64,000 bases of DNA, from the IMG/VR virus record IMGVR_UViG_3300028833_000010; one strand, written 5' to 3'. The stretch comes from a virus. The notes under the pieces were generated by a model. The model was not told the origin of the DNA, did not search any database, and saw only the letters and a program-made list of their open reading frames with translations. Positions 1 through 64,000 of the stretch are shown in pieces. Within the stretch, counting starts at the first letter, position 1. Every line of letters starts with the position of its first letter. Position numbers and translations under genes: made by a program.

Positions 1-507
1 TTCGATAAAGTCAAAAAGGTCATTGTATTTGAACCTGAAGATGTGAACTATGAATTTCTATCTACGAACATAGAAGACAATGGAGCAAAGAATGTAATTG
101 CCCATAAACAAGCAGTAGTTGGTAATGACGATAAGGTGCGTGACTTCTATCTGGGTAAAGCTCCATATTATTATTCATTCTTGGTAAAGCATAATCGCAA
201 ACGTGTTCCTGTTGAGTGCGTGAATATCAACGATGTTATGAAGAAGTACAAGCCTACCAAGATGAAGGTTGATATTGAAGGCTCTGAATGGGAAGTTCTT
301 ATCAACTGTACGGACTTCGGGAATGTTGACCAGATAATTTTTGAGTACAACTTCGATATGAATATGGACTTAAAAGAGGATTTCAAGCGGTTCAAGCTTC
401 TTCGTAAACATCTCAAGAAACACGGCTTTGATGTTCAGGAGATGGAACGAGATATGAAGCAGAATTGGAATTTAGTATTCATGGTACAAAGAAATAAGTC
501 ATGCTGA
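1..507 (+). CDS. FkbM-family SAM-dependent methyltransferase, C-terminal part (5' end lies left of the window)
   Basis: Frame 1 is open from nt 1 (FDKVKKVIVFEPEDVNYEFL...), so the listed Met at 43 is internal. 'VFEPxxxNYxxL' and 'KMKVDIEGSEWEVL' match the FkbM-type hallmark (K-x-D-x-E-G-x-E-x-x-VL) as I recall the family. Confidence 0.6.
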   Translation, partial: FDKVKKVIVFEPEDVNYEFLSTNIEDNGAKNVIAHKQAVVGNDDKVRDFYLGKAPYYYSFLVKHNRKRVPVECVNINDVMKKYKPTKMKVDIEGSEWEVLINCTDFGNVDQIIFEYNFDMNMDLKEDFKRFKLLRKHLKKHGFDVQEMERDMKQNWNLVFMVQRNKSC

Positions 508-860
508 TTTCAAAGAAAATAAAAGAACTCAAGGAGCCATTGGAGGTAGATTTACAGCTAATGGCTTCTGAGCTTGATACTTCGGTTAAGAACATGAAGT
601 ATTTATCAAAAGACATGATGACTGATGCAGTGTCAGTAGATGCATTTGATATGCTGGTTGAGGACATTGAAAGAGGAGAAGGAATTGAGGTAACAGCATT
701 TGACGACAATACTGTCTTGTATGAGTATTTGGACGAAGCTGTTGTTGTCCATAACGTTCTTGGCATTCGTTATATCATATTTGATAGCATGGTAACGCAA
801 AAGTTGGAAAACAGGTTGGACAGTTACAGAGACAGTTCAAACATTAATGACCGAGATTGA
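501..860 (+). CDS. hypothetical acidic protein
   Basis: ATGCTGA overlap with the upstream stop. 119 aa, D/E-rich, no motif recognised. Confidence 0.45.
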   Translation: MLISKKIKELKEPLEVDLQLMASELDTSVKNMKYLSKDMMTDAVSVDAFDMLVEDIERGEGIEVTAFDDNTVLYEYLDEAVVVHNVLGIRYIIFDSMVTQKLENRLDSYRDSSNINDRD

Positions 861-899
861 AGAGTTGCGACTCAGTTTCGTAATAATAAGTAAAATGAT

Positions 900-939
900 A
901 AAAGTAGGGCATTGAAAAATGTTCTACTTTTTATTTATT
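900..939 (+). terminator. intrinsic terminator (14-bp stem, GAAA tetraloop, T-rich tail)
   Basis: nt 900-913 pair with 918-931 (two G-U pairs), loop GAAA at 914-917, followed by TTATTTATT. Confidence 0.65.
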
Positions 940-949
940 ACACATTTTT

Positions 950-960
950 ACAGTTATAGG
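950..960 (+). promoter_or_regulatory. ACAGTTATAGG box, copy 1 (candidate late promoter or RNA element)
   Basis: Exact 11-mer shared with 16551-16561 and 25545-25555. Lies 33 nt upstream of the portal ATG. Confidence 0.4.
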
Positions 961-993
961 ATATTCAAATGTAAAAAATGATTTCAATATAGT

Positions 994-2694
994 ATGGGTA
1001 ATTCATATGCTAAACAGTTAGATGCCATTGCTCTTGCAGAAGCGAAGTTGAAGGCAAAAAGGTTTAGGACACTTGAGAAAGCTCTAAGGTCAGATTCACC
1101 AGATGATATGATAAAAGCTACTCAGGTGTTTCAACAAATTCAGCCTAAAATTGAGCAAAATAATGCTAAGGCATTTTTCATTGACCCATTGGAGTTCAAT
1201 TCCAATTTAGGGTACAAAGATAAGCCGTTTTCATTGACGTACACAACGTTGAAGAGAATGTCGAAGACACCTATCATAAATTCAATTATCAAGACAAGAA
1301 AAAATCAAGTAGCAGACTTTGCAGAGCCGCAAGAAAATAAGTATTCAACTGGCTTTGTTATCCGAAAGAAACCAAAGGGTGGAATTGAACAGAAGATGGA
1401 TAACAAAGACAAACGAATTGCTTTTGCTATTACAGAATTCATTTTGAAGGGCGGTAATGTTAATCAATGGGAGCATGACGACTTCGATACTTTTATCAGA
1501 AAGATTGTTGAAGACTCTTTGGTGTACGACCAAATGACATTTGAGTGTATTCGCAATCGAAGAGGACAATTGGAGAGTTTTATTGCTACTGATGCTGCAA
1601 CTTTTCGTATTGCTGATTCATACTTTGATAAGGATTATGATAATGTTTTCTTCCAAAGAAACAGATTAGATATTTGGAAGGATAGGAATGATTATGGACC
1701 AAAGGTTCATGGTTACTATCCTGCTTACGTTCAAGTTTACCAGAACGTAAAGGTCAATGAATTCTATCCTTGGGAGCTTTGTTTTGGAGTTCGCAATCCT
1801 TCCACTTCTATATACGCAAATGGATATGGATGTTCTGAGCTTGAAGAACTTATCAACGTTGTAACATCAATGCTTTGGGGTGATGAATACAATAGACGTT
1901 TCTTCAGTCAGGGTTCAGCTCCAAAAGGTTTATTGCGCATAAAAGGAACGAATAATGAAGCTGCGTTACAGCAATTCAAACAACAGTGGCAATCTATGAT
2001 TACTGGAGTAATGCAATCTTGGAAAACTCCTGTTGTAGAAGCTGACGTGGATTGGATAGACCTTCAAAAGAACAACCGTGATATGGAATATAGTTCTTGG
2101 ATGGAATATCTTATTAAACTATCATGTGCCATTTATTCAATTGACCCTTCCGAGATAGGATGGGACATCAGTCGTTCTTCAGGTAACGGAGGATTGTTTG
2201 AAGGAAATCAGGAACAACGTCTGAAACATTCTAAAGACAAGGGGTTGTATCCGCTTTTAAAATTCATCCAGAGAAAAATTAACAAATATATCATTGAGCA
2301 AATCAATCCTGATTTTGAACTTGTATTCGTAGGCTTGAATGGTTTGACTATCGAAGAGGAACTTGATATGGACATCAAGAAGGTAGGCAGCTTCATGACT
2401 GTAAACGAAGCACGTGAGAAATACGAGATGAAACCGCTTGAGTTTGGAGACGTGCCAACCAATGCTACTCTTCTTCAGAATAAGAATGCTGAGGCGATGG
2501 CTAAACAAGGTGGTGGTCAAGGAATGGAGATGAATGATGAGTATGACGCAGAAGGGGATGGTGAGGAGCAAAATCCTTTTGACCTGTATGCCGAAGAAAA
2601 TGACGAGGAAGACACTAATAAAGGTGGGCTGAAAGAAACGTTTATAAAAGCATTTGATAATTTTCTAAATAACGAAGAAAATGGAAATATCTAA
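994..2694 (+). CDS. portal protein
   Basis: 566 aa, first large gene of the morphogenesis block after a terminator/promoter gap. Portal-like size with an acidic C-terminal tail (DEYDAEGDGEEQNPFDLYAEENDEED). Portal-like core segment 'RRFFSQGSAPKGLLRIKG'. Confidence 0.7.
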   Translation: MGNSYAKQLDAIALAEAKLKAKRFRTLEKALRSDSPDDMIKATQVFQQIQPKIEQNNAKAFFIDPLEFNSNLGYKDKPFSLTYTTLKRMSKTPIINSIIKTRKNQVADFAEPQENKYSTGFVIRKKPKGGIEQKMDNKDKRIAFAITEFILKGGNVNQWEHDDFDTFIRKIVEDSLVYDQMTFECIRNRRGQLESFIATDAATFRIADSYFDKDYDNVFFQRNRLDIWKDRNDYGPKVHGYYPAYVQVYQNVKVNEFYPWELCFGVRNPSTSIYANGYGCSELEELINVVTSMLWGDEYNRRFFSQGSAPKGLLRIKGTNNEAALQQFKQQWQSMITGVMQSWKTPVVEADVDWIDLQKNNRDMEYSSWMEYLIKLSCAIYSIDPSEIGWDISRSSGNGGLFEGNQEQRLKHSKDKGLYPLLKFIQRKINKYIIEQINPDFELVFVGLNGLTIEEELDMDIKKVGSFMTVNEAREKYEMKPLEFGDVPTNATLLQNKNAEAMAKQGGGQGMEMNDEYDAEGDGEEQNPFDLYAEENDEEDTNKGGLKETFIKAFDNFLNNEENGNI

Positions 2695-2935
2695 GAAAGA
2701 TGCGCCAATAGTGCGCACATTTAGCGAGTATTTGCCTGAACCTTTCATTGACGAAGTTTCGGCAAATGAAAAGTATTATGGTTGGGCACCTATGGGAACT
2801 GCTGAAACCGATAATGGTTGGCGTATCATGAAAGAGACGAAGAGTGGAACTGTTACCAAGAGAGAGTATGCTCAAGGAACAATGGACTTCATCTCAGCTT
2901 GGAGTGAACGCACTACTTATAACTATTCAAGATAA
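2681..2935 (+). CDS. hypothetical small protein
   Basis: 84 aa, 14-nt overlap with the portal stop. No motif recognised. Confidence 0.5.
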   Translation: MEISKKDAPIVRTFSEYLPEPFIDEVSANEKYYGWAPMGTAETDNGWRIMKETKSGTVTKREYAQGTMDFISAWSERTTYNYSR

Positions 2936-2941
2936 TATAAT

Positions 2942-4825: not shown

Positions 4826-4836
4826 ATTGTAAGATT

Positions 4837-5424: not shown

Positions 5425-5429
5425 ATGTC

Positions 5430-5981: not shown

Positions 5982-5993
5982 ATAAGTAAGGAC

Positions 5994-7047: not shown

Positions 7048-7051
7048 CGAT

Positions 7052-26312: not shown

Positions 26313-28394
26313 ATGGCAGACGTAACAGTAAACATACGTGGTGACGCTTCCCAACTCCGAAATGAGTTAGACAATGTAAGCAGAAACCCAAGTTCAGACA
26401 CCTCTGCTCCTACATCTTCTGAAGGCGGTAGGAGTGGAGGTTCAGCTGCTCCTACATCTTATGAAGGCAGGAATGGGGGTTCAGCTGTTCCTTCTAACGA
26501 CCGAATGATTGAGGATGTTCGTAGGGAAATGCAGCAGCGTGGAGTTCTCTTGGTGCCTGGTTCTTCTTCGATGACTCAGATTATCAATCAGTATGGTCAA
26601 GCAACGAGAACAGCTGTTAATGACCGCATTTCGGAAAAGTACGACGCAAGGAGAGAAGACATGCGCAAGCGTATGAGTTCCGACTATGATGCCATTGAAG
26701 CCGATATTGATAAGAGGAGACAGGAAGGACTTCAAAGGCTTGGCCCAAGAGCTAATGACCCATTCTATACTGCTATACTTGACCAGCAATTAGAGCAGGA
26801 GAGGCAAAGACAGTACCGAATAGTAGGAAGTCAATATGACGATGAGGAGGAACAAATCAATCAAGAAGAAGCGAACGAAAGAACGCAAGCTGAAAATGAG
26901 TTGACCGATGCTATACGAGAACTGACAGAGTATTTCAACCGACAATCAAATCAAGGAGGAGGGGGAGATGCACCTGATTCATATATCGGTAAATTACGTG
27001 CTCGACAGAAAGAGTTAATACAGCAACGTGATTCAGCAGATACTGAGGAAGGAGCTATTGCGGCTTCAAGAAGTCTTGCCGATGTGAACGAACAACTCCG
27101 AAGAGTATTGGGAGGAGGAACTGCTCAACAAGGCAGACCTTATTATGATTCAGTTTTGCAAGGAGTTCAAGGAATACAAGGACTTTTCAATGGACTTCAA
27201 AGCGGTGATATTGGAAACACTATAATGGGTGGAGGTTCAGCCATAGCAGGTTTATCAGGCATGAGTATGAAAGCAGCATTACGCTTCTTGGGGTGGGTAG
27301 GAGTTGCTGCAGGTGTAGCGAAGTCTCTGACTGGGACTTCTGATTCATATGAATCAATGGCTGGGTTAGCATCTTTGAGAGCTACTACTGGATATCAAGG
27401 TGGTGATGCTTCAAATTATTTAGGAGCTATGCTGCCTGACGCTAATTTCAGAGGCATCAATTACACTGACTTTGGTTACAATACAGAGGAATTTGCTGGC
27501 AATGCTGTGAGAAGAATTAGGTCACGTGGTACTTCGGACGATTGGTATACTGAAGCCATGCGTCAAATCGGTTTGGAAAGAAACCTTGCTTTGGCAGAAG
27601 GTTCTTTAGAAAAAGGAAGTCAATATGACCGATATGGATTGAATGTAACAGAAGCAATATCACGTTTGGTAACTATATTGAATGGTATCGAAGGCTCAGG
27701 AGTATCTATGGGAGACTTCACGAGGGTTCAAGAGAAGTACGATATTCAGCAGCAGATAATGGGCTCATATATGAATAGAGCTGACCGACCAAATTATGAT
27801 GTAGCGAATGCTAATTTAGCAGCATTCTCAGCAGTTCAAGGTATAACGCAGGATTCAAGAATTGGAACTGATTATCAATCTTTCCAAAACATGATTCAAC
27901 AACCGATGAACGAGCGAATGAGAGCGTTGATATATAGTTCAGTTGCCGACTTATTTCCAGAGACTGGCGGACGCATGGACTTGATTGACCGTGAACTTCG
28001 CAATCCTGAAAATGAAGGTAAAATCATGCAATCTGTTATACAGCGTATCACACAACAGTTTGGAGGCACGGACACTCAGATGGGTTACTTTGCTTTCAAG
28101 TCTTTGTTGCCTGATATAGCTCCTGATCGTTTAGACCAATATATCAGTCAGTTATCTGATACTGGTACAATGTCAGGAAGTATATTGAAGAAGGGAATTG
28201 GTAATCAAGAAGATTTTGACATAGCTGGAAGACAGAATATGGATTTTTGGGCAGTACAATCTACTGAATTCACTACAGCTTGGACAAAGGGAAAGAATGA
28301 AGTTGTTTCAGTTCTCAATCAAATTCTTGGTAAGATTACAGGCACAACAACTATGCCTACTCCAAACACAATTAAGAGAGGAGGGAACAACTAA
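26313..28394 (+). CDS. tape measure protein
   Basis: 693 aa, with a coiled-coil N-terminal half, Gly-rich hydrophobic segment 'GGGSAIAGLSGMSMKAALRFLGWVGVAAGVA', and the standard position. Confidence 0.7.
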   Translation: MADVTVNIRGDASQLRNELDNVSRNPSSDTSAPTSSEGGRSGGSAAPTSYEGRNGGSAVPSNDRMIEDVRREMQQRGVLLVPGSSSMTQIINQYGQATRTAVNDRISEKYDARREDMRKRMSSDYDAIEADIDKRRQEGLQRLGPRANDPFYTAILDQQLEQERQRQYRIVGSQYDDEEEQINQEEANERTQAENELTDAIRELTEYFNRQSNQGGGGDAPDSYIGKLRARQKELIQQRDSADTEEGAIAASRSLADVNEQLRRVLGGGTAQQGRPYYDSVLQGVQGIQGLFNGLQSGDIGNTIMGGGSAIAGLSGMSMKAALRFLGWVGVAAGVAKSLTGTSDSYESMAGLASLRATTGYQGGDASNYLGAMLPDANFRGINYTDFGYNTEEFAGNAVRRIRSRGTSDDWYTEAMRQIGLERNLALAEGSLEKGSQYDRYGLNVTEAISRLVTILNGIEGSGVSMGDFTRVQEKYDIQQQIMGSYMNRADRPNYDVANANLAAFSAVQGITQDSRIGTDYQSFQNMIQQPMNERMRALIYSSVADLFPETGGRMDLIDRELRNPENEGKIMQSVIQRITQQFGGTDTQMGYFAFKSLLPDIAPDRLDQYISQLSDTGTMSGSILKKGIGNQEDFDIAGRQNMDFWAVQSTEFTTAWTKGKNEVVSVLNQILGKITGTTTMPTPNTIKRGGNN

Positions 28395-35502: not shown

Positions 35503-35811
35503 ATGAGAACACAAGTAAGTGTAAAAACTATAACAGAAGTTGAGCAATCCAGTGGTTTGTTTATTATTGATTGTTTTTCGGATATGAACGACAATGGTTC
35601 AACAACTCCTTCTATATATAAATCTCAAGTATTGGATAAACCTATGATTATTGACAATACTTCTGGGAAAGAAGGAGAGTTGATGTTATCTCATAGTGGT
35701 GAAACTGTTGGTAGTATAAACAATGATGGAGAATTGGTAATTGAACCTGAAGGGGACGATGCCAATAAGTATGTAAAAGAACAAGAAAACTTGACATATA
35801 ATGAAGGATAA
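35503..35811 (+). CDS. small baseplate-region protein
   Basis: 102 aa ORF. Confidence 0.4.
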   Translation: MRTQVSVKTITEVEQSSGLFIIDCFSDMNDNGSTTPSIYKSQVLDKPMIIDNTSGKEGELMLSHSGETVGSINNDGELVIEPEGDDANKYVKEQENLTYNEG

Positions 35812-37480
35812 TGTATTGAACGCAATTAGTGACGTACTGCTGATAGACGTTACACCTCAGATAACAGGAAGGGTTCATTTGACGGACTTTTCAGATGTTG
35901 TTGAAGGAGTAACCGCCACACGCACTGTTCATAAAGAGTTCCGAATTTCACCAGATGGAGTTTTTTGGAACGATTGGAAAGACCTTACTCCAGTAAACCT
36001 TGCTTCTAAAGATTACATTGTTGATAGTTCTTTAATAATTCAATTGAGATACACAAGAACTGGTTCTGATGATACTGGAGTTATTGAGTTCAAAAGTATA
36101 AACTTTATGGGCTCACGTGAGGCAATTCAATTTATCGCTCCTACTATTAATTCCAGCATTTTTGCCAACATAATCGGTACACCAGAGATGAAGGCTTTGG
36201 AAGAAAACATCTTCAAAAAGTTATATTATCGTGGCATTGTGCCTAACTATATTCGTAGAGCTGAAAACTCTGATGAGAATGAAGATAGGGACTATATTGA
36301 TTTGTTCTTTTCAGTTGCTAGGTTTTACAGTATGTTCATTCGTTTTTTTAAGAGGTTTGAGAACTTTCAAAACGATTTTGACCTTATGCGAGAGCAGGTT
36401 AGGCAATATGGAATATACTTCGATGAAGCAAACATTACTCTTGAAGACCTTCAATATTTGGCTCAAAATCTTTATGATCAAATACGACAAAGAGGAACTG
36501 AGATGATATTCAAGCGTAAAGGTTATTTGCTGCCAAACGGAAAAACTTTACAGATTGACGGAGAGTTTATCAGACTGATAAGAAGCAAGGTCAGTGATGA
36601 GCTTTTATACGAGAATATCCCATTGGAAAAAGTAGGTTGGTGTTTAGGTCAATGTTCTCCGATGTATCGTGGTACAGCTATGTCTAAATATCTAAACAAA
36701 ACAAAGGAAATGTCTGAAGATTTTGAAGACCTTTCTAATTTTGTTATGTCTAAAACTGGAACATCAAGTTATCAACTTATAGAATATGATGGCAAGAGAG
36801 TATTAGAATTGGAAGCAAGTGACGGAGGACGAGTTGGGTTGGGAAGACAAAATGAAAACACGAATGTTGATAACAACTTATATGTCGTTGATTCCAAACT
36901 TGATTATGAGATAACATTTGCTTTTCAAGTTGTAGGAGGAGTTAAACAAAATGCTACTTTGATATTTGGAGTAGAAGGATTTGATTCATTGAAAAATAAG
37001 TTAGATGATGCTTTTATAACTCCGAATGGCTTTTCAGTTTCAGATACTTTCTTTGAGTTGGGAACTATTACAAAATTGAATTCTGTTTGGTATCATGTTA
37101 GAGGTATTATACACGCTTATTCTACTTCAAACATTGACAATAGTCAAACTAATATTGGAGCTGGAACTAATTTGTATTTTTACAATTCTTTTGTGAAATA
37201 CATATTGCCTAAAATACAAATAACAAGTTCAGTTCCTTCAGACATTGTAATATGGAATTATAAGATAAGGCCATTGGTAAGAGGAACGAACATACTACCT
37301 TTGAAAGATGGTACTATAAACTCTCAAAGTTTGGGCTTTATTCAAAGTTCACGCATTTTTTATGCTTATGTGAGAAACAATAACAATAGCTTGTCTCAAA
37401 GTGAAATTACAGATATTATAGAAAAGTATCTGCTACCATTCAACATGACGGATATATTTATATTTATGAGTAATCATTAA
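35801..37480 (+). CDS. baseplate / fibre-attachment protein
   Basis: 559 aa after the J-like gene (gpI-like position). Confidence 0.35.
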   Translation: MKDNVLNAISDVLLIDVTPQITGRVHLTDFSDVVEGVTATRTVHKEFRISPDGVFWNDWKDLTPVNLASKDYIVDSSLIIQLRYTRTGSDDTGVIEFKSINFMGSREAIQFIAPTINSSIFANIIGTPEMKALEENIFKKLYYRGIVPNYIRRAENSDENEDRDYIDLFFSVARFYSMFIRFFKRFENFQNDFDLMREQVRQYGIYFDEANITLEDLQYLAQNLYDQIRQRGTEMIFKRKGYLLPNGKTLQIDGEFIRLIRSKVSDELLYENIPLEKVGWCLGQCSPMYRGTAMSKYLNKTKEMSEDFEDLSNFVMSKTGTSSYQLIEYDGKRVLELEASDGGRVGLGRQNENTNVDNNLYVVDSKLDYEITFAFQVVGGVKQNATLIFGVEGFDSLKNKLDDAFITPNGFSVSDTFFELGTITKLNSVWYHVRGIIHAYSTSNIDNSQTNIGAGTNLYFYNSFVKYILPKIQITSSVPSDIVIWNYKIRPLVRGTNILPLKDGTINSQSLGFIQSSRIFYAYVRNNNNSLSQSEITDIIEKYLLPFNMTDIFIFMSNH

Positions 37481-38949: not shown

Positions 38950-39843
38950 ATGATGATATATTTGACGGGGGCAGCGACCTCATTAACAAAAACGCAAGAC
39001 AATCCTCAATCAGATGCATCAAGGAGCTTGGGTGGATACATTTCTTCCACCCCAGTTCCTAATGCAGCGTTGAATACGTTGTTTGACCTTATTTCTTCTT
39101 ACACTTTAGAGAAGAAGTCAAAGGAAACAATAGCAATAGGACTTATAAATCAATTTGATAAACCAGTGAGGGATATTGAGTTGAAAATAGTAACAGACGA
39201 AAATCACGAAGCTGTTTTCAAAATAGCAGCCGTAGCAGTAAGTTCTGATGATTATGCTATGGAAAAGATAGCTAATAGATATCAAGAGCCTATGTTGGCG
39301 GAGTTTTATGATGCTTCTTTTTATCGAGCTGCCGTTGATTTGAAAATCGAACAATACGCTTCAGCAGGAGAGGAAATTGCTTTGTTCCCCTTTAATGTAT
39401 CTTTTGAGGTAAAGGAAACAGGAATTGAAGGCACTTGGTTAGCCTTTGAGGAGGCATTTAGCAATGATGAAACTTATAGTGTGAAGAGAATATCTGAAAC
39501 GATATTCAGGATTGAGAGACGTGACGAAACAGTGCTGGAAACTCCATTAGAATGCTCCTACATTACCACCGAAGGTTTTACGGCTGAATTTTTAGGCAAA
39601 TTAAGTAATAAAGCTGATAATGGAGTAATCATCAAAAATGAATTAAAACCGAAGGAAGCTGTAGGAATATGGATCCAAAGAATAATAAAGAAAAATCATT
39701 ATCCTACCAACGAAGAGTTGTTGAAAGAATACAAAGACAAATATGTTCGTGAGACTGTAGAGGAGGTTGAGTTGGTTCTCAGTTATAATTTAGTTGATGA
39801 TAAGAACTATCAAGAAACTGATTACAATGAAAATTATTCGTAA
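38950..39843 (+). CDS. fibre-block structural protein
   Basis: The ATG at 38950 lies just after the upstream stop, whereas the listed 38830 start lies inside the previous gene. N-terminus 'YLTGAATSLTKTQDNPQSDASRSLGGYISSTPV'. Confidence 0.4.
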   Translation: MMIYLTGAATSLTKTQDNPQSDASRSLGGYISSTPVPNAALNTLFDLISSYTLEKKSKETIAIGLINQFDKPVRDIELKIVTDENHEAVFKIAAVAVSSDDYAMEKIANRYQEPMLAEFYDASFYRAAVDLKIEQYASAGEEIALFPFNVSFEVKETGIEGTWLAFEEAFSNDETYSVKRISETIFRIERRDETVLETPLECSYITTEGFTAEFLGKLSNKADNGVIIKNELKPKEAVGIWIQRIIKKNHYPTNEELLKEYKDKYVRETVEEVELVLSYNLVDDKNYQETDYNENYS

Positions 39844-50056: not shown

Positions 50057-51298
50057 ATGAGTATTCCGAGTAACAATGTTTACGTTCCTGAGTTAGGAGT
50101 AGCAAAAACAGACACCTTTGCAGCGTTGTACCCTGCTATAAATTACTACCTGTTCACCCAGAAGGACTACGAGCCGAGCCGTGATGGAGAGGTTAAGGAG
50201 GTGCTTGATTTTAAGACGCAGTTGACCAATCCTTATCGTAGATGTGTAGGTGGTTATGAGCGTGATATAAATGTGTTCTTTTTGTTGGCTGAAGCGATGT
50301 GGATAGCAATGGGAAGGAAAGATGTTCATTTCTTGACTTTGTTCAATAAGAAGATGGCAGACTTTTCAGATGACGGGGAAACATTCCACGCTCCTTATGG
50401 TTATCGGTTACGTCATTGGGGCATTCGTACAGAAGATAAGTTTGTAAAAGATAATTTGGATGCAAGTAAGGGGTATGACCAAGTGATAGATGCTATCAAG
50501 ATATTATCTGAAAATCCAAACAGTCGTCAGGTAGTTATGGAGATTTGGAATCCAAACTTTGACTTGGGATACAAAACTAAAGATATTCCATGTAATGATA
50601 TAGTGATGTTGAAAATACGAGAAGGAAAGCTCATCACTACTATCGGAAACCGAAGCAATGACCTTCATTGGGGATTGCCAACAAACATATTCCAATTCAG
50701 CTTTTTGACTGAGCTTATAGCAGGAGCATTGGGAGTAAAACTTGGAACACAAACTCATAATTCTCAAAGTCTGCATATATACGAGTGGAATAAGATTGCT
50801 AAAACAATGAGCGACTTGTATGTTGAACAAAAAGGCGGTGGTTCTGTTATCGGGAATATGTATGATGATTGCGGTGCTCAAGAGCGTAGAATAGATTTCA
50901 ACTTCAGCCATGAAGTAGCCGTCAATCGTTTCCGTGAAATTGAATACAATCTTCAAATCATTATTGATAACCTCATACGAGTATCAGAGGGAGAAGAGCC
51001 GATTGAGGCTGAAATCCAGCAGTTAGCAAACTTTTCTAACTATCTGTATAACTCTTATCTACTTTTGAAGATATATTTGGAATACAAGCTGAAAATGACT
51101 ATTCTCAAAACTCCTGACGAGAAAGATGTAGCACGTCATACCGCTATTTCTGAAATTGAAGTCTTGGAAGCTCATATGGAGGATAATAGCGGAACAGGAG
51201 TAATGGGCTACAATTGGGATATATCTATGCTTGCAAAGAACTTCTTTGCCGCAAGGTTATCTAAAAAAGTGGAACATGAATATCTTGGTAAGCTATGA
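50057..51298 (+). CDS. divergent ThyA-family pyrimidine C5-transferase (thymidylate synthase or dUMP hydroxymethylase-like)
   Basis: By-eye alignment to E. coli ThyA: 'NPNSRQVVMEIWNP', catalytic Cys in 'DIPCND', 'NRSNDLHWGLPTNIFQF', 'SLHIYEWN'. It has a ~120-aa C-terminal extension and lacks the IWDEWA-type Trp segment. Confidence 0.7.
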   Translation: MSIPSNNVYVPELGVAKTDTFAALYPAINYYLFTQKDYEPSRDGEVKEVLDFKTQLTNPYRRCVGGYERDINVFFLLAEAMWIAMGRKDVHFLTLFNKKMADFSDDGETFHAPYGYRLRHWGIRTEDKFVKDNLDASKGYDQVIDAIKILSENPNSRQVVMEIWNPNFDLGYKTKDIPCNDIVMLKIREGKLITTIGNRSNDLHWGLPTNIFQFSFLTELIAGALGVKLGTQTHNSQSLHIYEWNKIAKTMSDLYVEQKGGGSVIGNMYDDCGAQERRIDFNFSHEVAVNRFREIEYNLQIIIDNLIRVSEGEEPIEAEIQQLANFSNYLYNSYLLLKIYLEYKLKMTILKTPDEKDVARHTAISEIEVLEAHMEDNSGTGVMGYNWDISMLAKNFFAARLSKKVEHEYLGKL

Positions 51299-54871: not shown

Positions 54872-55525
54872 ATGTTAGCGAAAATTTTCAATGGAGCTTA
54901 TCTGAAAAGGCTTGATAACATCAAGCAGTGGCAAGAAATGGACGTTTTCAAAGAGGAAAGCGTGAGTCAACATTCTTATAAAGTATCAATCTTTGGAAGG
55001 ATATTACTTGAAGATATATTTGGGTTTGATAACCAAGATGCGAAAGTATTGGCATTCAAACTTGATTGTGTAGATGCGTTTGCGTTCCACGATTGGGATG
55101 AAGCGTTGATACTCAGAGATATGTCTCATGAGACAAAGTACAATAATTATAATGGTACTGAAATCAGACAAGCTCTCAATAACCTATCAAAACATAAAGC
55201 AATTGATGAGTTCAGAGAAGATGATGGAAATAATTGCGGTAATTGTAGTGCTTCTGCTTACTTGGTTATTGGCAATATTACACGTCAAGGAGATGATGTT
55301 AAAATCTTTTGTAAACTGGTTGATTGGTTAGCTCTTATCTTCTATATGAAAAGGGAACGTGAGTTGGGTAACAAGGGACTAAGTGCTCAATGGGAGAATG
55401 GTAAAGAAGAACTGAAACAGGCTGTTACGAATGTAATTGAAATGTTGAATAGAAAGTTTGAAGGTTATTATTTGAACTTAACAGAATTAAATAACTTAAT
55501 CAAAAATGTGTATGACGAACATTAA
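54872..55525 (+). CDS. HD-domain phosphohydrolase, YfbR-like 5'-deoxynucleotidase
   Basis: 'RLDNIKQWQEM..EESVSQHSYKV...FHDWDEALILRDMSHETK' parallels YfbR 'RLKLINRWPLM..ENVSEHSLQV...YHDASEVLTGDLPTPVK' (recalled sequence). Confidence 0.6.
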   Translation: MLAKIFNGAYLKRLDNIKQWQEMDVFKEESVSQHSYKVSIFGRILLEDIFGFDNQDAKVLAFKLDCVDAFAFHDWDEALILRDMSHETKYNNYNGTEIRQALNNLSKHKAIDEFREDDGNNCGNCSASAYLVIGNITRQGDDVKIFCKLVDWLALIFYMKRERELGNKGLSAQWENGKEELKQAVTNVIEMLNRKFEGYYLNLTELNNLIKNVYDEH

Positions 55526-56363: not shown

Positions 56364-57710
56364 ATGGAAAAGAAAAATTCAAGCGGAGATTTGCGTTCAC
56401 AGTTGAAAGCAACTCCTATTAAAAAGCTGAAAAAGCGTGTCGATGAAGACAATGAAATGGTGGGCGGTAGCAGCAACGAGTATCTGAATTTGGAAGATGG
56501 AAAGACATTGAAAATTCGTATATTCCCAGCTCACCCTGGCGTTGAAGACTTTTATATTCCAAAGAAGTGTTACTGGCTTACAATTGCTGGTAAGGATGGA
56601 GACCCAAGACGTACTACTGTGCTTGACTCTAAGGTTCACGGAGGTACGAAGTGGGACTTGGTAGAAGAGTATGTAAAATTTGCTAAGAAGAAATGGGCAA
56701 AAGATGCAGATAAATTAGATGCTCTTACAGGTACTGGTCAAAACCAAAACAGCCTCAATCCTTCTTACACTTGGTTGTGCTATGCTGCACAAGTTACGGC
56801 TGACGAAGAGTTGCGTGCTAAGTTGTGGGAGTTTAAGAAAATGGTTCGGGATGCGATGAACAAGTTGGCATTTTCCGAAGATGAGGATGAAGCAATTGAA
56901 GTTGACCCATTTACTGATCCAGATGAAGGTCTGCCTATCTTGGTTAAGTATATGAAAAATCCAAACAAGAAGAAGGGTGAAAACTATTATGAAGTATCAT
57001 TCCCGAAGAAGGTATCAGCAAGACCGCTTACAGATGAGGAAATTGAGTATTTCATGACTCTGAAACCGCTTACTGAAGTATTGCCTAAGTACGGAATGAG
57101 AGACTTTGAGAAAGCGTTGGAAGGTTTGCAGAACTTTGACGAAGAACATGAAATGGAATTGTTCGAGGATGATGCTTGGCTAGAACACGTTGAGGAAATC
57201 AAATCTCAGTATGATGCTGAAGATGATGAAGAAGATGATAAACCTTCTAAAAAGAAAATTTCCAAGAAAGTTACCAAAAAGGTAGTTGACGAAGAAGATG
57301 AGGACGAGGGTGATGATGACTCCGATGATGAGGAAGAGGAGGAAGAAAAACCTAAGAAAAAGTTAGCGAAAGCTCCTGCTAAGAAAGCTGCCAATAAGGT
57401 AGAAGATGAGGATGAAGAAGAGGAAGAGGAGGAAGAGCCTGAGGATGAAGCAGACGAAGAAGAGGATGATTCAGATGAAGCTGAAGACGATGGCTTGGAC
57501 GACATGGACAGAACTGAACTGAAAAAGTATATCAATGAAAATGACTTGGAAGTATCGGTTAAGAAGTCTATGACGGATGACGACTTGCGTGAAGCTATTC
57601 GGGAAGCGATGAATAGCAATGACTCTGATGAAGATGAAGAAGATGAGGAAGAAGCACCGAAAAGCAAAATTTCTCTGAAAGACATCAAGAAGAAACTTGC
57701 TGGAAAATAA
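56364..57710 (+). CDS. candidate ssDNA-binding protein (gp32-like N-terminus) with a long acidic tail and HeH module
   Basis: 'LNLEDGKTLKIRIFPAHPG..FYIPKKCYWL' resembles gp32 '[31 protein letters not shown]', but the Zn ligands are not conserved. The acidic tail contains 'MDRTELKKYINENDLEVSVKKSMTDDDLREAIR'. Confidence 0.35.
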   Translation: MEKKNSSGDLRSQLKATPIKKLKKRVDEDNEMVGGSSNEYLNLEDGKTLKIRIFPAHPGVEDFYIPKKCYWLTIAGKDGDPRRTTVLDSKVHGGTKWDLVEEYVKFAKKKWAKDADKLDALTGTGQNQNSLNPSYTWLCYAAQVTADEELRAKLWEFKKMVRDAMNKLAFSEDEDEAIEVDPFTDPDEGLPILVKYMKNPNKKKGENYYEVSFPKKVSARPLTDEEIEYFMTLKPLTEVLPKYGMRDFEKALEGLQNFDEEHEMELFEDDAWLEHVEEIKSQYDAEDDEEDDKPSKKKISKKVTKKVVDEEDEDEGDDDSDDEEEEEEKPKKKLAKAPAKKAANKVEDEDEEEEEEEEPEDEADEEEDDSDEAEDDGLDDMDRTELKKYINENDLEVSVKKSMTDDDLREAIREAMNSNDSDEDEEDEEEAPKSKISLKDIKKKLAGK

Positions 57711-58928: not shown

Positions 58929-58955
58929 CAGCGTTTATAAGGAAAATATGAATTT

Positions 58956-61881: not shown

Positions 61882-61932
61882 GCATCTCAAAGTTTATAGA
61901 GATAATATGAACAATGTAAACTTTTATTATAG

Positions 61933-62448
61933 ATGGAAAATAAAGAATGGATAAAATCCATAAATGACAAAAAGTTAATTGCAGTTGACCCTGGCAAAGA
62001 GGGTGGAATTGTAGTATTTTCACTTGATAGAAACGAGATAATAACAGTAATTCATATGCCTGAAACTCCTCAGGATTTATTGAATTTTATCACGAAGTAT
62101 CAGAAGAATGCGACATGCTACTTGGAAAAGGTAGGAGGACTTCCAGGAATGGGAGGCAGTTCAATGTTTAATTTCGGAAAGGGGTTTGGTCACTTGGAAA
62201 TGGCTCTTTTATGCAGAAAGATACCTACTATGGAGGTTACTCCTCAGAAGTGGCAGAAGGAGCTACAAGTGGGCAATAAAGGGAAGAAAACCACTACGCA
62301 GTGGAAAACTAAACTGAAAGAACGTGCTCAACAAATTTATCCGAGTGTAGGAGAGAAGTTCAACTTGAAGACAAAACAAGATTGGATGAGAGTTTCAGAC
62401 GCTCTTTTGATTTTAGAATACGCAAGAATAACAGAAAAACGAAGATAA
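61933..62448 (+). CDS. RuvC-fold Holliday junction resolvase-like protein
   Basis: 'LIAVDPGKEGGIVVF' (first catalytic Asp context) and 'YLEKVGG..GGSSMFNFGKGFG'. Confidence 0.5.
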   Translation: MENKEWIKSINDKKLIAVDPGKEGGIVVFSLDRNEIITVIHMPETPQDLLNFITKYQKNATCYLEKVGGLPGMGGSSMFNFGKGFGHLEMALLCRKIPTMEVTPQKWQKELQVGNKGKKTTTQWKTKLKERAQQIYPSVGEKFNLKTKQDWMRVSDALLILEYARITEKRR

Positions 62449-62450
62449 AT

Positions 62451-62789
62451 ATGGTAAAATTTGTTTGTAGAAACGAAGAGTGCAAGAGAAAGGGAGTTGA
62501 AGATGAATACTATTCAAATACCTATCATATGGTTAACGGACATCTTCAAAGCAATAACGCTCCTTGTCCATGTTGCGGTAAAGTACGAGAGGAAATCAAT
62601 CCAGCCGATGATATTCCGTTGAGTCAGAAAAATATCGACATTGCTAAGTATGGTAGTGCTTCACTTGAAGATAAAAGAGCAATGTTGAAGAAACGTTCTC
62701 ATGACCATTATGAGAAAGAAATAAAACCTTTCAAGGAACATCAACTGCATGAGGCAGTTAAGCGATTTAAGGACGCAAGTAAGAATTGA
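62451..62789 (+). CDS. zinc-ribbon protein
   Basis: 'CRNEEC...CPCCG' gives two CxxC pairs. The ATG at 62451 lies just after the upstream stop. Confidence 0.45.
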   Translation: MVKFVCRNEECKRKGVEDEYYSNTYHMVNGHLQSNNAPCPCCGKVREEINPADDIPLSQKNIDIAKYGSASLEDKRAMLKKRSHDHYEKEIKPFKEHQLHEAVKRFKDASKN

Positions 62790-62793
62790 CGGT

Positions 62794-63420
62794 ATGGGAT
62801 TGGAGAGCATGTATTTCAAAGCAGATTATCATTACAAGGCTAAACTTGTCAATAAGTGGATTGCGATAATCAGATACTCAACAAATGAAAAGCGAGTTAA
62901 GGCATATAAGAATTTGGTATTCAAGATGATGAAAGATATTGTCAAGAAAAATATTGCCAATTATCTAAATCTTCTTAACAATACTGAAGTGAAATACATG
63001 TCTGATAGAGATGAATTGGTTGCCGATTGTTATATCATCTTTGACAAATGTTTGGAGAAATATATAATTAAGGGCAATTACAATTTTTATTTCTATTTCA
63101 ACAAATCATTATCAAGAAATTTTTACAGAGATTATCAGAAGGAGTTACAGAGGAGCAATGGATGCGTAGAAATTTCAGAAGCATTGGAGGCAGTGAATAA
63201 GGGGTTTCACGATTATCGGGAGCCTGATGCAACTGAGCTTTTGATGGAGCATCTTGGTTTAGATGAATTAGAAAAGCGGATATGTCGTTCAAGAATGTTG
63301 GGTCAAAAAACTTCCGAGTTTTTGAAGGAAAATCCAGATGTAACAAACGGACAATATTCACGTTGTCTCAAGAAAATAAAAGAAGTACTAATAATGTTTC
63401 AAGAGAAAGGAGAAATTTAA
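62794..63420 (+). CDS. second sigma-70-family-like (ECF-size) protein
   Basis: Region-2-like 'ELVADCYIIFDKCLEKY...FYRDYQKE'. Region-4-like 'LDELEKRICRSRMLGQKTSEFLKENPDVTNGQYSRCLKKIKEVL'. Confidence 0.45.
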   Translation: MGLESMYFKADYHYKAKLVNKWIAIIRYSTNEKRVKAYKNLVFKMMKDIVKKNIANYLNLLNNTEVKYMSDRDELVADCYIIFDKCLEKYIIKGNYNFYFYFNKSLSRNFYRDYQKELQRSNGCVEISEALEAVNKGFHDYREPDATELLMEHLGLDELEKRICRSRMLGQKTSEFLKENPDVTNGQYSRCLKKIKEVLIMFQEKGEI

Positions 63421-63421
63421 T

Positions 63422-63763
63422 ATGGAAGCGAACATTTATCAAAAAGCCATAGAACAGCTGGTATTGGAAGGAAATACGATATTACAAGTGTGTACTCCGA
63501 ACAAGGATGAGTTCTTGTTCTTTGCCGTATATAAATGGCAAGAAGGGTATTTTAACACGGCTCAGTCTATTGATTTCAATACTGTGGAAGGTGTAAACAT
63601 TACAGAGTTCTTAACTAAGAACGCAGCAATGTACTCTAATAGAACAAACTTTATATCGTCATTCAACCGAGTAATGGAAGAAGGAGTTTTGGTACGTTGC
63701 GAGTTCACAAAGAGTGCAACTTGGTTTAAGTGGGCAGCTCCGAATGGTACAAAGAAACTGTAA
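63422..63763 (+). CDS. hypothetical protein
   Basis: 113 aa ORF. Confidence 0.45.
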   Translation: MEANIYQKAIEQLVLEGNTILQVCTPNKDEFLFFAVYKWQEGYFNTAQSIDFNTVEGVNITEFLTKNAAMYSNRTNFISSFNRVMEEGVLVRCEFTKSATWFKWAAPNGTKKL

Positions 63764-63768
63764 ATAAA

Positions 63769-64000
63769 ATGAAACTGAGTAGATATCAAACAACGATTTA
63801 TAAAGTATTTCAAAAGACGAAGAAAGATATCAACATTTCAGCAGTTGCAGGTTCAGGGAAAACTACGGTGTTATTGGAGTTATTGAATTTTATTCCGAAC
63901 AACGCCAGTTCCCTGTTCCTTGCTTTTAATAACTCAATTATTGATGAGTTAAAGGAGCGAAACAAACGAAAAGATGTTGAAATCATGACTATACATTCTT
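63769..64000 (+). CDS. UvrD/PcrA/Dda-like SF1 helicase, N-terminal fragment (continues past the window)
   Basis: Not in the ORF track because there is no stop. 'MKLSRYQTTIYKVF...NISAVAGSGKTTVLLE...LFLAFNNSIIDELKER...IMTIHS' carries Walker A and motif Ia/II-like elements. Confidence 0.6.
   Translation, partial: MKLSRYQTTIYKVFQKTKKDINISAVAGSGKTTVLLELLNFIPNNASSLFLAFNNSIIDELKERNKRKDVEIMTIHS

What the first reader, a model, noticed from the sequence alone, without database searches (positions are those of the whole stretch)
1..64000. GATC is almost absent from 64 kb (4 sites seen versus roughly a couple of hundred expected)
I read every line for the palindrome GATC and found four copies:
- 28125-28128, in the tape-measure gene
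- 36476-36479
- 39672-39675, inside a GGATCC
- 56916-56919

The first 28 kb contain none. For this A+T-rich composition a simple base-frequency model predicts on the order of 150-250 copies.

The avoidance is visible at codon level. Asp before a C-initial codon is written GAC-C (gaccttc, gaccatc and gacccat are common). G-ending codons are followed by ATT or ATA (gagatt, aagatt, aagata), while ATC is used freely after A, T or C. Tetramers of the same composition, such as CATG, GTAC and TCGA, are plentiful.

Established knowledge: palindrome avoidance of this strength in phages is the classic footprint of a host type II restriction system. The MboI/Sau3AI/DpnII class cuts GATC. A GATC-methylation-dependent process would leave the same footprint.

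Inference: the host lineage targets GATC, and this phage escapes by site loss rather than by a Dam-like methylase, none of which is seen in this window. An alternative is that the phage itself uses a GATC-specific nuclease against host DNA. This signal also argues against a blanket base modification that would make site loss unnecessary (see the ThyA finding).
Basis: partly seen in the sequence, partly recalled or inferred. Interest (0 to 1): 0.7.

Follow-up and report, generated by a model that had tools for sequence, protein, structure and literature searches.

The report
Restriction-site loss in a gut phage
This uncultured Bacteroidales-type phage has removed nearly every GATC and several other short palindromes from its genome by synonymous codon choice; this is the classic footprint of escaping host restriction enzymes, so it is a very clean but ordinary example.

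Summary
GATC occurs 4 times in 64 kb, at the stated coordinates, against 170-237 expected under four null models (z about -18). No more sites appear in 12 kb of flanking sequence.

GATC is not unique. CGCG (0), CCGG (5), CTAG (9), GGCC and GCGC are also depleted, as are CGWCG and several 6-mers. Seven of the eight most depleted tetramers are palindromes.

Avoidance acts through synonymous codon choice in all three frames. The two surviving sites that can be compared with relatives are recent GAC-to-GAT changes.

Among 116 related loci from about 97-kb gut and rumen phages there are 31 different avoidance profiles. One sister lineage carries a C5 cytosine methyltransferase. That lineage has normal CGCG, CCGG and GCGC counts and near-normal GATC.

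This supports host type II restriction as the cause. No DNA methyltransferase was found in the window or in close relatives.

The whole family carries an SP10-like dUMP hydroxymethylase and a 5-hmdU-kinase helical-domain protein. Published data show 5-hmdU DNA is still cut by MboI.

Verdict: a real, well-supported new member of a known kind. A side observation is that CGAGR occurs 113:0 in one orientation.

The parts
1..64000 (.). Region of near-total GATC loss (4 sites). CGCG (0), CCGG (5), CTAG (9), GGCC (15), GCGC (20) and CGWCG (3) are depleted in parallel.
   Evidence: Exact counts with base-frequency and Markov expectations. Synonymous-codon-shuffle null. 5-mer and 6-mer screen.
28125..28128 (+). 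Surviving GATC, read as CCT-GAT-CGT (Asp-Arg) in ORF 26313-28394. By its position after the sheath and tube genes, this ORF is the tape-measure gene.
   Evidence: All eight aligned relatives have GAC here (seven GAC-C, one GAC-A), so the site is a derived synonymous C-to-T change.
36476..36479 (+). Surviving GATC, read as TAT-GAT-CAA (Asp-Gln) in ORF 35801-37480.
   Evidence: No diverged relative was available at this position.
39672..39675 (+). Surviving GATC inside GGATCC, read as TGG-ATC-CAA (Trp-Ile-Gln) in gene 38950-39843.
   Evidence: called gene at L095 9089-9982. Trp has a single codon, so only the Ile codon could have avoided the site.
56916..56919 (+). Surviving GATC, read as ACT-GAT-CCA (Asp-Pro) in ORF 56364-57710, an SSB-like gene.
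   Evidence: The GATC-avoiding relatives have GAC here (four GAC-C, one GAC-G). The GATC-normal lineage L177 has GATC.
50057..51298 (+). Context: thymidylate-synthase-family protein (413 aa), best read as a dUMP hydroxymethylase.
   Evidence: Pfam PF00303 covers residues 75-243 only. It scores below all NCBIfam thymidylate-synthase cut-offs. The best isolate hit is the SP10 dUMP hydroxymethylase at 45% identity, E 1e-53, followed by M6-like and ViI-like phages. The catalytic Cys and the uracil-specifying Asn are retained.
54872..55525 (+). Context: YfbR-like HD-domain 5'-deoxynucleotidase. It is a candidate for clearing dTMP or dNMP pools.
   Evidence: Pfam PF12917. NCBIfam 5'-deoxynucleotidase, below cut-off. 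Conserved next to the hydroxymethylase and DnaE genes in relatives.
1..507 (+). Context: C-terminal part of an FkbM-family methyltransferase. The gene starts upstream of the window, directly after the 5-hmdU-kinase helical-domain gene. It is not a recognisable DNA methyltransferase.
   Evidence: TIGR01444 fkbM_fam. Its presence varies among relatives.

Best explanation
The window belongs to an uncultured, apparently lytic myovirus with a genome of about 97 kb. Its host is of the Bacteroidales type.

Its lineage has been selected, over long exposure to hosts carrying type II restriction-modification systems, to lose the recognition sites of those systems. For GATC the enzymes would be MboI-, DpnII- or Sau3AI-like. 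Site loss happens almost entirely through synonymous codon choice: GAC in place of GAT before C, ATT or ATA in place of ATC after G, and AGY in place of TCN after xGA.

The same process has removed CGCG, CCGG, CTAG and CGWCG, and partly removed GGCC, GCGC and TCGA. New sites keep arising by mutation (GAC to GAT) and are purged, which leaves a handful at any one time.

The phage carries no DNA methyltransferase for self-protection. It probably replaces thymine with 5-hydroxymethyluracil or a derivative. That modification protects poorly against GATC cutters and cannot protect T-free sites, so site loss is still needed.

**Shown:** the depletion, its codon basis, its lineage specificity, and its relaxation in a methyltransferase-bearing lineage.

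**Inferred:** the identity of the host enzymes, the host itself, and the DNA modification.
For: **Strength and specificity**
- 4 observed against 170-237 expected.
- GATC has the most negative z-score of all 256 tetramers.
- Seven of the eight most depleted tetramers under the codon-aware null are palindromes (P = 7e-9).

**Mechanism visible in all three reading frames**.

**Surviving sites are young.** Relatives have GAC where the window has GAT-C at 28125 and 56916.

**The pattern is lineage-specific, not intrinsic to the family.**
- 116 related loci give 31 distinct avoidance profiles.
- GATC is avoided in 59% of loci, CTAG in 81%, CGCG in 59%, CCGG in 53% and ACGT in 7%. CATG, GTAC and TGCA are never avoided.
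- Base composition and proteins are similar across these lineages.

**A natural experiment.**
- The only lineage with a phage C5 cytosine methyltransferase (PF00145, E 1.5e-87) is on exactly the contigs whose capsid loci show relaxation.
- It has CGCG, CCGG and GCGC at Markov expectation and GATC at 0.6-0.9, in three separate genome regions.
- It still lacks CTAG and is still depleted in GGCC.

**A cultured relative shows the same thing.** Bacteroides thetaiotaomicron phage DAC16 has GATC 4 against 78 expected.

**Literature**
- An active MboI-like GATC system exists in Prevotella intermedia ATCC 25611 and is lost in strain 17 (PMC5608340).
- GATC methylation is strain-variable in every B. fragilis-group species examined. 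CGCG and CGWCG are also methylated motifs there (PMC10333322).
- B. dorei strains have either none or 20,551 methylated GATC sites (PMC4101878).
- Site avoidance is typical of non-temperate dsDNA phages and of orthodox type II systems (PMC6286503).
Against: - The host is not identified beyond a 92%-capsid relative binned with a Bacteroidales MAG and Bacteroides or Chryseobacterium phages as the nearest isolates. No host enzyme of matching specificity could therefore be shown.
- A methyl-directed (DpnI-like) enzyme acting on Dam-methylated progeny would leave the same footprint.
- The specificity of the C5 methyltransferase is unknown. Relaxation in that lineage could partly reflect a different host.
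- Lineages with different profiles are only 70-76% identical in nucleotides, so the speed of turnover is not established.
Confidence: 0.8

Rival explanations
1. The driver is methyl-directed restriction. Many Bacteroidales strains methylate GATC, so phage progeny from those strains carry G6mATC and are cut by DpnI-like or type IV enzymes in the next strain. Having no GATC is the only state that is safe against both DpnII-like and DpnI-like strains.
For: - GATC methylation is present in some strains and absent in others of the same Bacteroides species (PMC4101878; PMC10333322).
- GATC is the commonest 6mA motif in gut phage methylomes (PMC10711547).
- The absence of a phage Dam gene fits a situation where methylation would not be safe.
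Against: - No DpnI-like enzyme has been shown in candidate hosts here.
- The co-avoided sites (CGCG, CCGG, CTAG, CGWCG) are ordinary type II targets and are explained more simply by classical restriction.
- This rival is better seen as a contributor than as an exclusive alternative.
Confidence: 0.12
2. The depletion reflects neutral drift towards a host-like oligonucleotide signature or a context-specific mutational or repair bias, and not selection on the phage by restriction.
For: CTAG is rare in many bacteria for reasons not tied to a particular enzyme, and it is the most uniformly avoided word in this family (81% of loci).
Against: - The depletion is near-absolute and restricted to palindromes.
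- Lineages of the same base composition and gene content differ from 0 to expectation.
- Relaxation coincides with gain of a phage methyltransferase.
- MutH-type Dam-directed repair is, from general knowledge, confined to gammaproteobacteria.
Confidence: 0.05
3. The phage encodes its own GATC-specific nuclease to degrade host DNA and is immune because it has no sites.
For: Many window genes have no recognisable family, so a divergent restriction-like nuclease cannot be strictly excluded.
Against: - No restriction-endonuclease family was detected in any called gene.
- At least six unrelated motifs are avoided and the set changes between lineages. That would require a matching set of changing nucleases.
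- Relaxation tracks a methyltransferase and not the loss of a nuclease.
Confidence: 0.02

Closest known systems
Restriction-site (palindrome) avoidance in lytic dsDNA phages, as surveyed by Rusinov et al. 2018 (PMC6286503). The classic single case, recalled from memory, is Staphylococcus phage K, which lacks GATC (Sau3AI) sites.
   Same: - Near-complete elimination of orthodox type II palindromes.
- A non-temperate dsDNA phage.
- Achieved at synonymous positions.
- No phage methyltransferase.
   Different: - The host phylum is Bacteroidota, and the phage is uncultured.
- At least four 4-bp palindromes plus CGWCG are removed together.
- A large set of relatives shows 31 different profiles.
- The family also carries thymine-modification genes.
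5-hydroxymethyluracil and hypermodified-thymine phages (Bacillus SP8, SPO1 and SP10; Pseudomonas M6; Salmonella ViI; PMC8989533, PMC7653180, PMC6449724)
   Same: - An SP10-like dUMP hydroxymethylase (45% identity).
- A protein homologous to the C-terminal helical domain of the SP10 gp186 5-hmdU DNA kinase.
- Homologues of that protein occur as stand-alone genes in ViI-like and M6-like phages.
   Different: - No P-loop kinase domain and no aGPT-Pplase (amino-acid:DNA transferase) was found in the 76 kb or in close relatives' remaining genome.
- An FkbM-family methyltransferase sits next to the helical-domain gene.
- The DNA chemistry is unknown.
T-even phages with hydroxymethylcytosine, which avoid few host restriction sites (PMC6286503, section read)
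   Same: A nucleotide-level modification pathway based on a thymidylate-synthase-family hydroxymethylase.
   Different: The outcome is opposite.
- hmC phages avoid only 2.4% of E. coli restriction sites, against 55.8% in relatives lacking the hydroxymethylase.
- In this family extreme avoidance coexists with the hydroxymethylase.
- That fits 5-hmdU blocking only about 8% of type II enzymes (PMC7653180).
Phage-encoded methyltransferase self-protection (T4 or P1 Dam; multispecific C5 methyltransferases of Bacillus phages; recalled from memory)
   Same: One sister lineage uses this route: a C5 methyltransferase with normal CGCG, CCGG and GCGC counts and near-normal GATC.
   Different: The window phage and its clade have no DNA methyltransferase and rely on site loss.
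Single-orientation arrangement of type III sites (T7 and EcoP15I CAGCAG; recalled from memory). This applies to the side observation only.
   Same: CGAGR occurs 113 times on the + strand and its complement YCTCG 0 times in 76 kb. The bias varies by lineage.
   Different: All genes are on one strand, so avoidance at the mRNA level would look identical. No host type III enzyme of this specificity is known to me.

Membership tests
Restriction-site avoidance (anti-restriction by site loss) | The site is significantly under-represented against composition-aware, Markov and codon-aware expectations. | tested here: met
   4 observed against 170-237 expected, z about -18.
Restriction-site avoidance (anti-restriction by site loss) | The avoided word is the recognition site of a restriction-modification system in the phage's host. 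| not testable with these tools
   The host is not identified. Indirect support comes from an active MboI-like GATC system in Prevotella intermedia and from GATC, CGCG and CGWCG being methylated motifs in the B. fragilis group.
Restriction-site avoidance (anti-restriction by site loss) | Avoidance is specific to lineage or host and is not a constant of the phage family. | tested here: met
   31 profiles among 116 related loci. GATC ranges from 0 to expectation.
Restriction-site avoidance (anti-restriction by site loss) | Avoidance relaxes when another anti-restriction device, such as a phage methyltransferase, covers the site. | tested here: met
   The C5 methyltransferase lineage has CGCG, CCGG and GCGC at expectation and GATC at 0.6-0.9, while CTAG and GGCC remain avoided. 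The enzyme's specificity was not determined.
Restriction-site avoidance (anti-restriction by site loss) | A non-temperate dsDNA phage, the class in which avoidance is strongest. | tested here: inconclusive
   No integrase or repressor family appears among Pfam hits for called genes or in relatives' remaining genome. Many genes are unannotated.
Thymidine hypermodification pathway (5-hmdU-derived) | A dUMP hydroxymethylase of the thymidylate synthase family. | tested here: met
   45% identity (E 1e-53) to the SP10 dUMP hydroxymethylase. The uracil-specifying Asn is retained. It scores below all thymidylate-synthase equivalog cut-offs. The activity itself is inferred.
Thymidine hypermodification pathway (5-hmdU-derived) | A P-loop 5-hmdU DNA kinase. 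| tested here: not met
   Only the helical domain (PF18723) is present, and it aligns to residues 316-597 of SP10 gp186. No Walker-A partner was found other than terminase, helicases, RecA and one structural-module protein that does not match gp186.
Thymidine hypermodification pathway (5-hmdU-derived) | An aGPT-Pplase (amino-acid:DNA transferase). | tested here: not met
   No Pfam aGPT-Pplase hit in the genes flanking the helical-domain or hydroxymethylase genes, or in relatives' remaining genome.
Thymidine hypermodification pathway (5-hmdU-derived) | A modified thymine detected in virion DNA. | not testable with these tools
   Needs LC-MS of nucleosides from purified virions.
Phage Dam-type self-methylation | A phage-encoded N6-adenine (or C5/N4) DNA methyltransferase acting on GATC. 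| tested here: not met
   There is no DNA methyltransferase family in the window's genes or in close relatives' remaining genome. A motif scan of all loci finds DNA methyltransferases only in other lineages. The FkbM-family protein is not a known DNA methyltransferase.
Type III restriction evasion by site orientation (side observation) | An asymmetric, adenine-containing 5-6 bp word is present in one orientation only. | tested here: met
   CGAGR 113 against YCTCG 0 in 76 kb, where 24 were expected in the window.
Type III restriction evasion by site orientation (side observation) | The bias follows DNA orientation and not the transcript sense strand. | not testable with these tools
   Every gene in the window, its flanks and relatives' remaining genome is on the + strand.

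The most novel reading that the evidence does not exclude
This family of roughly 97-kb gut and rumen phages would combine three layers of restriction evasion.
- A core thymine modification of unknown chemistry: an SP10-like dUMP hydroxymethylase plus a stand-alone kinase-helical-domain protein, without the known kinase or transferase.
- Lineage-specific deletion of type II palindromes.
- Strict single-orientation placement of asymmetric words (CGAGR 113:0, and also CTAAG, CGATG, GGATG and AGACC in various lineages).

If the orientation bias reflects type III systems, the phage genomes are a readable record of the type II and type III repertoire of their uncultured Bacteroidales hosts. If it reflects sequence-specific host RNases acting on phage transcripts, that would be a largely undescribed form of motif avoidance.
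Probability: 0.2. Interest if true: 0.65.

Novelty: new member of a known kind. Interest (0 to 1): 0.35.

Why it matters
- **As a single fact it is textbook.** Phages lose restriction sites.
- **The value lies in the context.** A widespread family of uncultured gut and rumen phages shows site loss that is almost absolute and differs between lineages. It is relaxed exactly where a phage methyltransferase was acquired.
- **Possible use for host prediction.** Avoidance profiles could serve as a host-strain or restriction-repertoire predictor for Bacteroidales phages, where host assignment is hard.
- **A counter-example.** The family shows that a hydroxymethyl-pyrimidine pathway does not always make site loss unnecessary. 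That fits published evidence that 5-hmdU is a weak shield.
- **Practical consequences.** Virion DNA of this clade should be essentially uncuttable by MboI, Sau3AI, DpnII, BstUI, HpaII, MspI and BfaI. Any engineering of these phages should avoid introducing those sites.

Tried and rejected
- **Nucleotide search.** Megablast of 20 kb against 50,697 phage records found no match. The family was reached only through proteins.
- **Sample source.** A text search for the run, sample and assembly accessions found nothing, so the environment is known only from the names of related contigs ('human gut metagenome', 'fermentation metagenome').
- **Genome walking.** Walking the exact genome beyond the window was blocked by tool rules. 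The missing roughly 15 kb was examined in close relatives instead. Queries with the SSB-like protein and a 301-aa flank protein returned few loci.
- **5-hmdU kinase.** A Walker-A scan and comparison of the 580-aa P-loop protein (11319-13061) with SP10 gp186 gave no similarity.
- **CTCG depletion as a general TC-context effect** (linked to kinase TG/TC preference). Rejected: among the 16 NTCN words only CTCG is an outlier, at 0.17 against 0.63-1.33 for the others.
- **Methyltransferase specificity.** PDB and phage hits for the C5 methyltransferase were ambiguous: M.HhaI catalytic core, Dcm-like enzymes, M.SpyI or 'hpaIIM', and a Parabacteroides phage homologue.
- **Artefact, neutral signature and phage-nuclease readings.** Considered and scored low; see the rival explanations.
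- **tRNA scan of the window.** None found.


Full report
**1. The observation**

An exact scan finds GATC four times in the 64,000 bases, at 28125, 36476, 39672 (inside GGATCC) and 56916.

The window has 37.7% G+C and a purine-rich + strand.

| Null model | Expected GATC |
|---|---|
| Base frequencies | 211 |
| First-order Markov | 237 |
| Maximal-order Markov | 195 |
| 300 synonymous-codon shuffles (proteins and each gene's codon usage kept) | 170 +/- 9, minimum 148, z = -17.9 |

The Poisson P(<=4) is below 1e-66.

The same sequence was assembled at 100% identity from several independent samples, so the depletion is not an artefact. Nine kb upstream and 3.2 kb downstream, recovered from those contigs, add no further GATC. 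That makes 4 sites in 76.2 kb.

**2. How the sites are avoided**

- Asp followed by a C-initial codon is written GAT 3 times and GAC 109 times. That is 3% GAT, against 64-76% before A, G or T.
- Ile after a G-ending codon was ATC 0 of 274 times in my gene set, against 16-26% after other bases. The single real case is the Trp-Ile site at 39672, in a gene left out of that set.
- Ser after xGA codons is never TCN (0 of 29), against 69% elsewhere.

All three reading frames that can create GATC are therefore purged by synonymous choice. The compensating word GACC is enriched 1.6-fold.

Three survivors are GAT-C and one is TGG-ATC. At the two survivors where diverged relatives could be aligned (28125 and 56916), the GATC-avoiding relatives have GAC. 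A relative from a lineage that does not avoid GATC has GATC at the second site. The survivors are therefore young C-to-T gains and not conserved functional sites.

**3. GATC is not alone**

| Word | Observed | Expected (codon-aware null) |
|---|---|---|
| CGCG | 0 | 43 |
| GATC | 4 | 170 |
| CCGG | 5 | 57 |
| CTAG | 9 | 87 |
| CTCG | 10 | 60 |
| GGCC | 15 | 54 |
| GCGC | 20 | 55 |
| TCGA | 81 | 188 |

These are the most depleted of the 256 tetramers under the codon-aware null. Seven of the eight are palindromes, and only 16 of 256 tetramers are palindromic (P = 7e-9).

Degenerate and longer palindromes are also missing:
- CGWCG 3 against 48
- CGSCG 3 against 26
- TTCGAA 0 against 14
- ATCGAT 0 against 10
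- CTTAAG 0 against 8
- TACGTA 0 against 7

TCGA is at 0.43, and CTAG, which has the same composition as GATC, was overlooked.

**4. What the window is**

The window holds two modules.
- A myovirus structural module: portal, protease, major capsid protein and tail sheath, plus baseplate and lysis genes (Pfam lists).
- A replication module: helicases, DnaB, a DnaE-type polymerase III alpha, RecA and SbcCD-like genes.

All genes are on the + strand.

There is no nucleotide match to 50,697 phage records. The nearest isolates by protein are:
- Bacteroides thetaiotaomicron phages DAC16, 19, 20, 22, 23 and SJC03 (capsid 46% identity)
- Chryseobacterium phage MA9V-3

IMG/VR and metagenome scans recover hundreds of relatives, with capsid identity of 69-97%. 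Contigs cluster at 96-101 kb and many are labelled human gut metagenome. A 97-kb relative with 92% capsid identity sits in a MAG labelled uncultured Bacteroidales. The host is therefore inferred, not shown, to be a member of the Bacteroidales.

**5. The comparative test**

I counted 4-bp palindromes in 116 related loci of at least 12 kb from several genome regions. This gave 31 distinct avoidance profiles.

| Word | Share of loci with O/E < 0.12 |
|---|---|
| CTAG | 81% |
| GATC | 59% |
| CGCG | 59% |
| CCGG | 53% |
| GGCC | 12% |
| GCGC | 10% |
| ACGT | 7% |
| TCGA | 3% |
| AGCT | 2% |
| CATG, GTAC, TGCA | 0% |

- The clade nearest the window (87-92% nucleotide identity) has GATC, CTAG, CGCG and CCGG all at 0 in ten separate 21-kb loci. 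Together these loci span the genome.
- Other lineages have normal GATC but no ACGT or no AGCT.
- Lineages with different profiles are about 70-76% identical in nucleotides. Loci at 95% identity share a profile.
- DAC16, a cultured B. thetaiotaomicron phage, also has GATC 4 against 78.

The depletion is therefore not a fixed property of the family's replication or packaging. It tracks lineage, as expected if it tracks the host.

**6. A natural experiment**

A motif scan of all loci found one lineage with a C-5 cytosine DNA methyltransferase (PF00145, E 1.5e-87). An independent IMG/VR scan with that protein returned exactly three contigs. They are the same contigs whose capsid loci had stood out as not avoiding CGCG or CCGG.

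In three separate regions of these genomes:
- CGCG, CCGG and GCGC sit at Markov expectation.
- GATC is at 0.6-0.9 of expectation.
- CTAG is still 0.
- GGCC is still at 0.15-0.3.

Avoidance is thus relaxed for part of the motif set exactly where the phage can methylate its own cytosines. This is the behaviour expected of a restriction footprint. It is hard to reconcile with a mutational bias or a phage nuclease.

The enzyme's specificity could not be assigned from homology. A host change may contribute, so this remains a strong correlation and not a proof.

**7. No methyltransferase in the window phage**

Precomputed Pfam hits for every called gene of the window show no DNA methyltransferase. 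The only methyltransferase-like gene is an FkbM-family protein whose C-terminus is window 1-507.

There the interval between the second UvrD helicase and the terminase could be closed. It contains no DNA methyltransferase.

**8.

- The 'ThyA' (50057-51298, 413 aa) matches the thymidylate synthase fold only over residues 75-243.
- It keeps the catalytic Cys and the uracil-specifying Asn.
- It scores far below every NCBIfam thymidylate-synthase cut-off.
- Its best hit among isolates is the Bacillus phage SP10 gene annotated dUMP hydroxymethylase (45% identity, E 1e-53), followed by M6-like and ViI-like phages. All of these are known thymidine-hypermodifying groups (PMC8989533).
- Just upstream of the window lies a 370-aa protein matching Pfam HMUDK_hel (E 1.6e-49). 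It aligns to the C-terminal, non-kinase part of SP10 gp186. Its homologues are stand-alone genes in ViI-like and M6-like phages.
- A dUTPase and a YfbR-like 5'-deoxynucleotidase complete a plausible pool-manipulation set.
- These genes are conserved across the family, in GATC-free and GATC-normal lineages alike.

Neither a P-loop 5-hmdU kinase nor an aGPT-Pplase was found. The end product may therefore be plain 5-hmdU or something new.

Published digests explain why this does not remove the need for site loss:
- SP8 DNA, with all T replaced by 5-hmdU, resists only 8.3% of type II enzymes. It is cut completely by MboI, TaqI, HaeIII, MspI and HhaI (PMC7653180).
- Hypermodified phiW-14 DNA only slows Sau3AI and MboI (PMC6449724).
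- CGCG, CCGG, GGCC and GCGC contain no T at all.

It does not apply here.

**9. Do plausible hosts have the matching systems?**

- Prevotella intermedia ATCC 25611 has an active GATC system whose nuclease is 51% identical to MboI. Strain 17 keeps the methyltransferase but has lost the nuclease (PMC5608340).
- GATC methylation is found in at least one isolate of all five B. fragilis-group species, but not in all strains. CGCG is methylated in all P. distasonis isolates. CGWCG, CCNGG and YGGCCR are also in that methylome catalogue (PMC10333322).
- Two B. dorei strains carry 0 and 20,551 methylated GATC sites (PMC4101878).
- GATC is the commonest 6mA motif in gut phage methylomes (PMC10711547).

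A phage moving among such strains cannot rely on inherited methylation. If some strains carry methyl-directed enzymes, methylation would even be harmful. Losing the site is the only universally safe state. This last step is inference.

**10. Verdict**

The best explanation is restriction-site avoidance under type II systems of Bacteroidales hosts (confidence 0.8). A methyl-directed variant is a possible contributor. Neutral signature and phage-nuclease readings are unlikely.

It is a new member of a well-known kind. What lifts it slightly above routine:
- the completeness of the purge
- the multi-site set
- the family-wide mosaic with a methyltransferase-linked relaxation
- the coexistence with a thymine-modification module

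**11. Side observation: orientation bias**

Several non-palindromic words are eliminated in one orientation only.

| Depleted on + strand (observed / expected) | Reverse complement on + strand (observed / expected) |
|---|---|
| CTCG 10 / 60 | CGAG 149 / 144 |
| CTTAG 2 / 30 | CTAAG 66 / 82 |
| CATCC 2 / 13 | GGATG 89 / 77 |
| CATCG 4 / 21 | CGATG 69 / 60 |
| AGAACC 0 / 15 | GGTTCT 15 / 17.5 |

- CTCG is depleted in all three frames, and all its survivors in the window are RCTCG.
- In 76 kb there are 113 CGAGR on the + strand and 0 YCTCG. In close relatives 39 of 42 surviving CTCG are RCTCG.
- The bias varies by lineage at equal base composition. For example, CTCG/CGAG is 0/95 in L109 and 16/34 in L112. 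GGTCT/AGACC is 0/27-0/30 in some loci and 12/11-16/15 in others.
- It is not a general TC-context effect.

Two readings fit. One is evasion of type III systems, which need inversely oriented sites (the T7/EcoP15I precedent, recalled from memory). The other is avoidance of motifs in transcripts. They cannot be separated because every gene is on one strand.

Noticed in passing
Whole window and flanks; for example CTCG at 10 sites against CGAG at 149: There is strand-specific, lineage-variable elimination of non-palindromic words. CGAGR occurs 113 times on the + strand and YCTCG 0 times in 76 kb (24 expected in the window). CTTAG/CTAAG is 2/66, CATCC/GGATG 2/89, CATCG/CGATG 4/69 and AGAACC/GGTTCT 0/15. 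This could be type III restriction evasion by site orientation, or motif avoidance at the transcript level. The two cannot be told apart because all genes are on the + strand.
   Followed up: partly
window 50057-51298, 54872-55525 and 1-507; L004:7342-8454 (just upstream of the window): There is a probable thymine-modification module. It comprises an SP10-like dUMP hydroxymethylase, a YfbR-like 5'-deoxynucleotidase, a dUTPase, a stand-alone 5-hmdU-kinase helical-domain protein and an adjacent FkbM-family methyltransferase. No P-loop kinase or aGPT-Pplase was found, so the modification may be plain 5-hmdU or an undescribed derivative.
   Followed up: partly
window-wide; CGACG/CGTCG, CGGCG/CGCCG, ACGGT/ACCGT and several 6-mers: Degenerate and 6-bp palindromes are also purged. 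CGWCG is 3 against 48, CGSCG 3 against 26 and ACSGT 19 against 75. TTCGAA, ATCGAT, CTTAAG and TACGTA are all 0 against 7-14 expected. CGWCG is a methylated motif in B. fragilis-group isolates.
   Followed up: partly
L151:2241-3659 (also L149, L150, L152, L232-L234): A sister lineage carries a 472-aa C5 cytosine methyltransferase. Its first 77 or so residues are homologous to a small stand-alone ORF present at the same place in other lineages (for example L101:4438-4677). The methyltransferase therefore appears fused onto a conserved small gene. Its closest phage homologue is in Parabacteroides phage PF672P1 (62% identity).
   Followed up: partly
L101:12393-15082, against the junction after the dUTPase gene in L004 (2102-2109): Human-gut relatives carry a 2.7-kb insertion that the window phage lacks. 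It encodes a ferritin- or rubrerythrin-like protein and a 645-aa protein with a weak ribonucleotide-reductase barrel hit.
   Followed up: no
window 1-64000, plus flanks and relatives' remaining genome: Every gene of the roughly 97-kb genome is on one strand. GC skew is uniformly positive (0.13-0.25), AT skew is positive, and no tRNA genes are present.
   Followed up: partly
window 11319-13061: A 580-aa protein with a Walker A motif (GGAGIGKS at residue 258) sits inside the structural gene block. It matches only PHROG 1250 (unknown function) and is unrelated to the SP10 5-hmdU kinase.
   Followed up: partly
L159:10152-10988: One distant lineage encodes an N6/N4 DNA methyltransferase (PF01555) yet still has GATC at 0 against 48 expected. 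That enzyme presumably protects a different motif.
   Followed up: no
L112 and L113 against L109 and L111: These lineages are equally close to the window phage (88% terminase identity) but differ sharply in CCGG: 74-76 per 21 kb against 0-1. All four keep GATC at 0. CCGG avoidance therefore turns over independently of GATC and CGCG.
   Followed up: no
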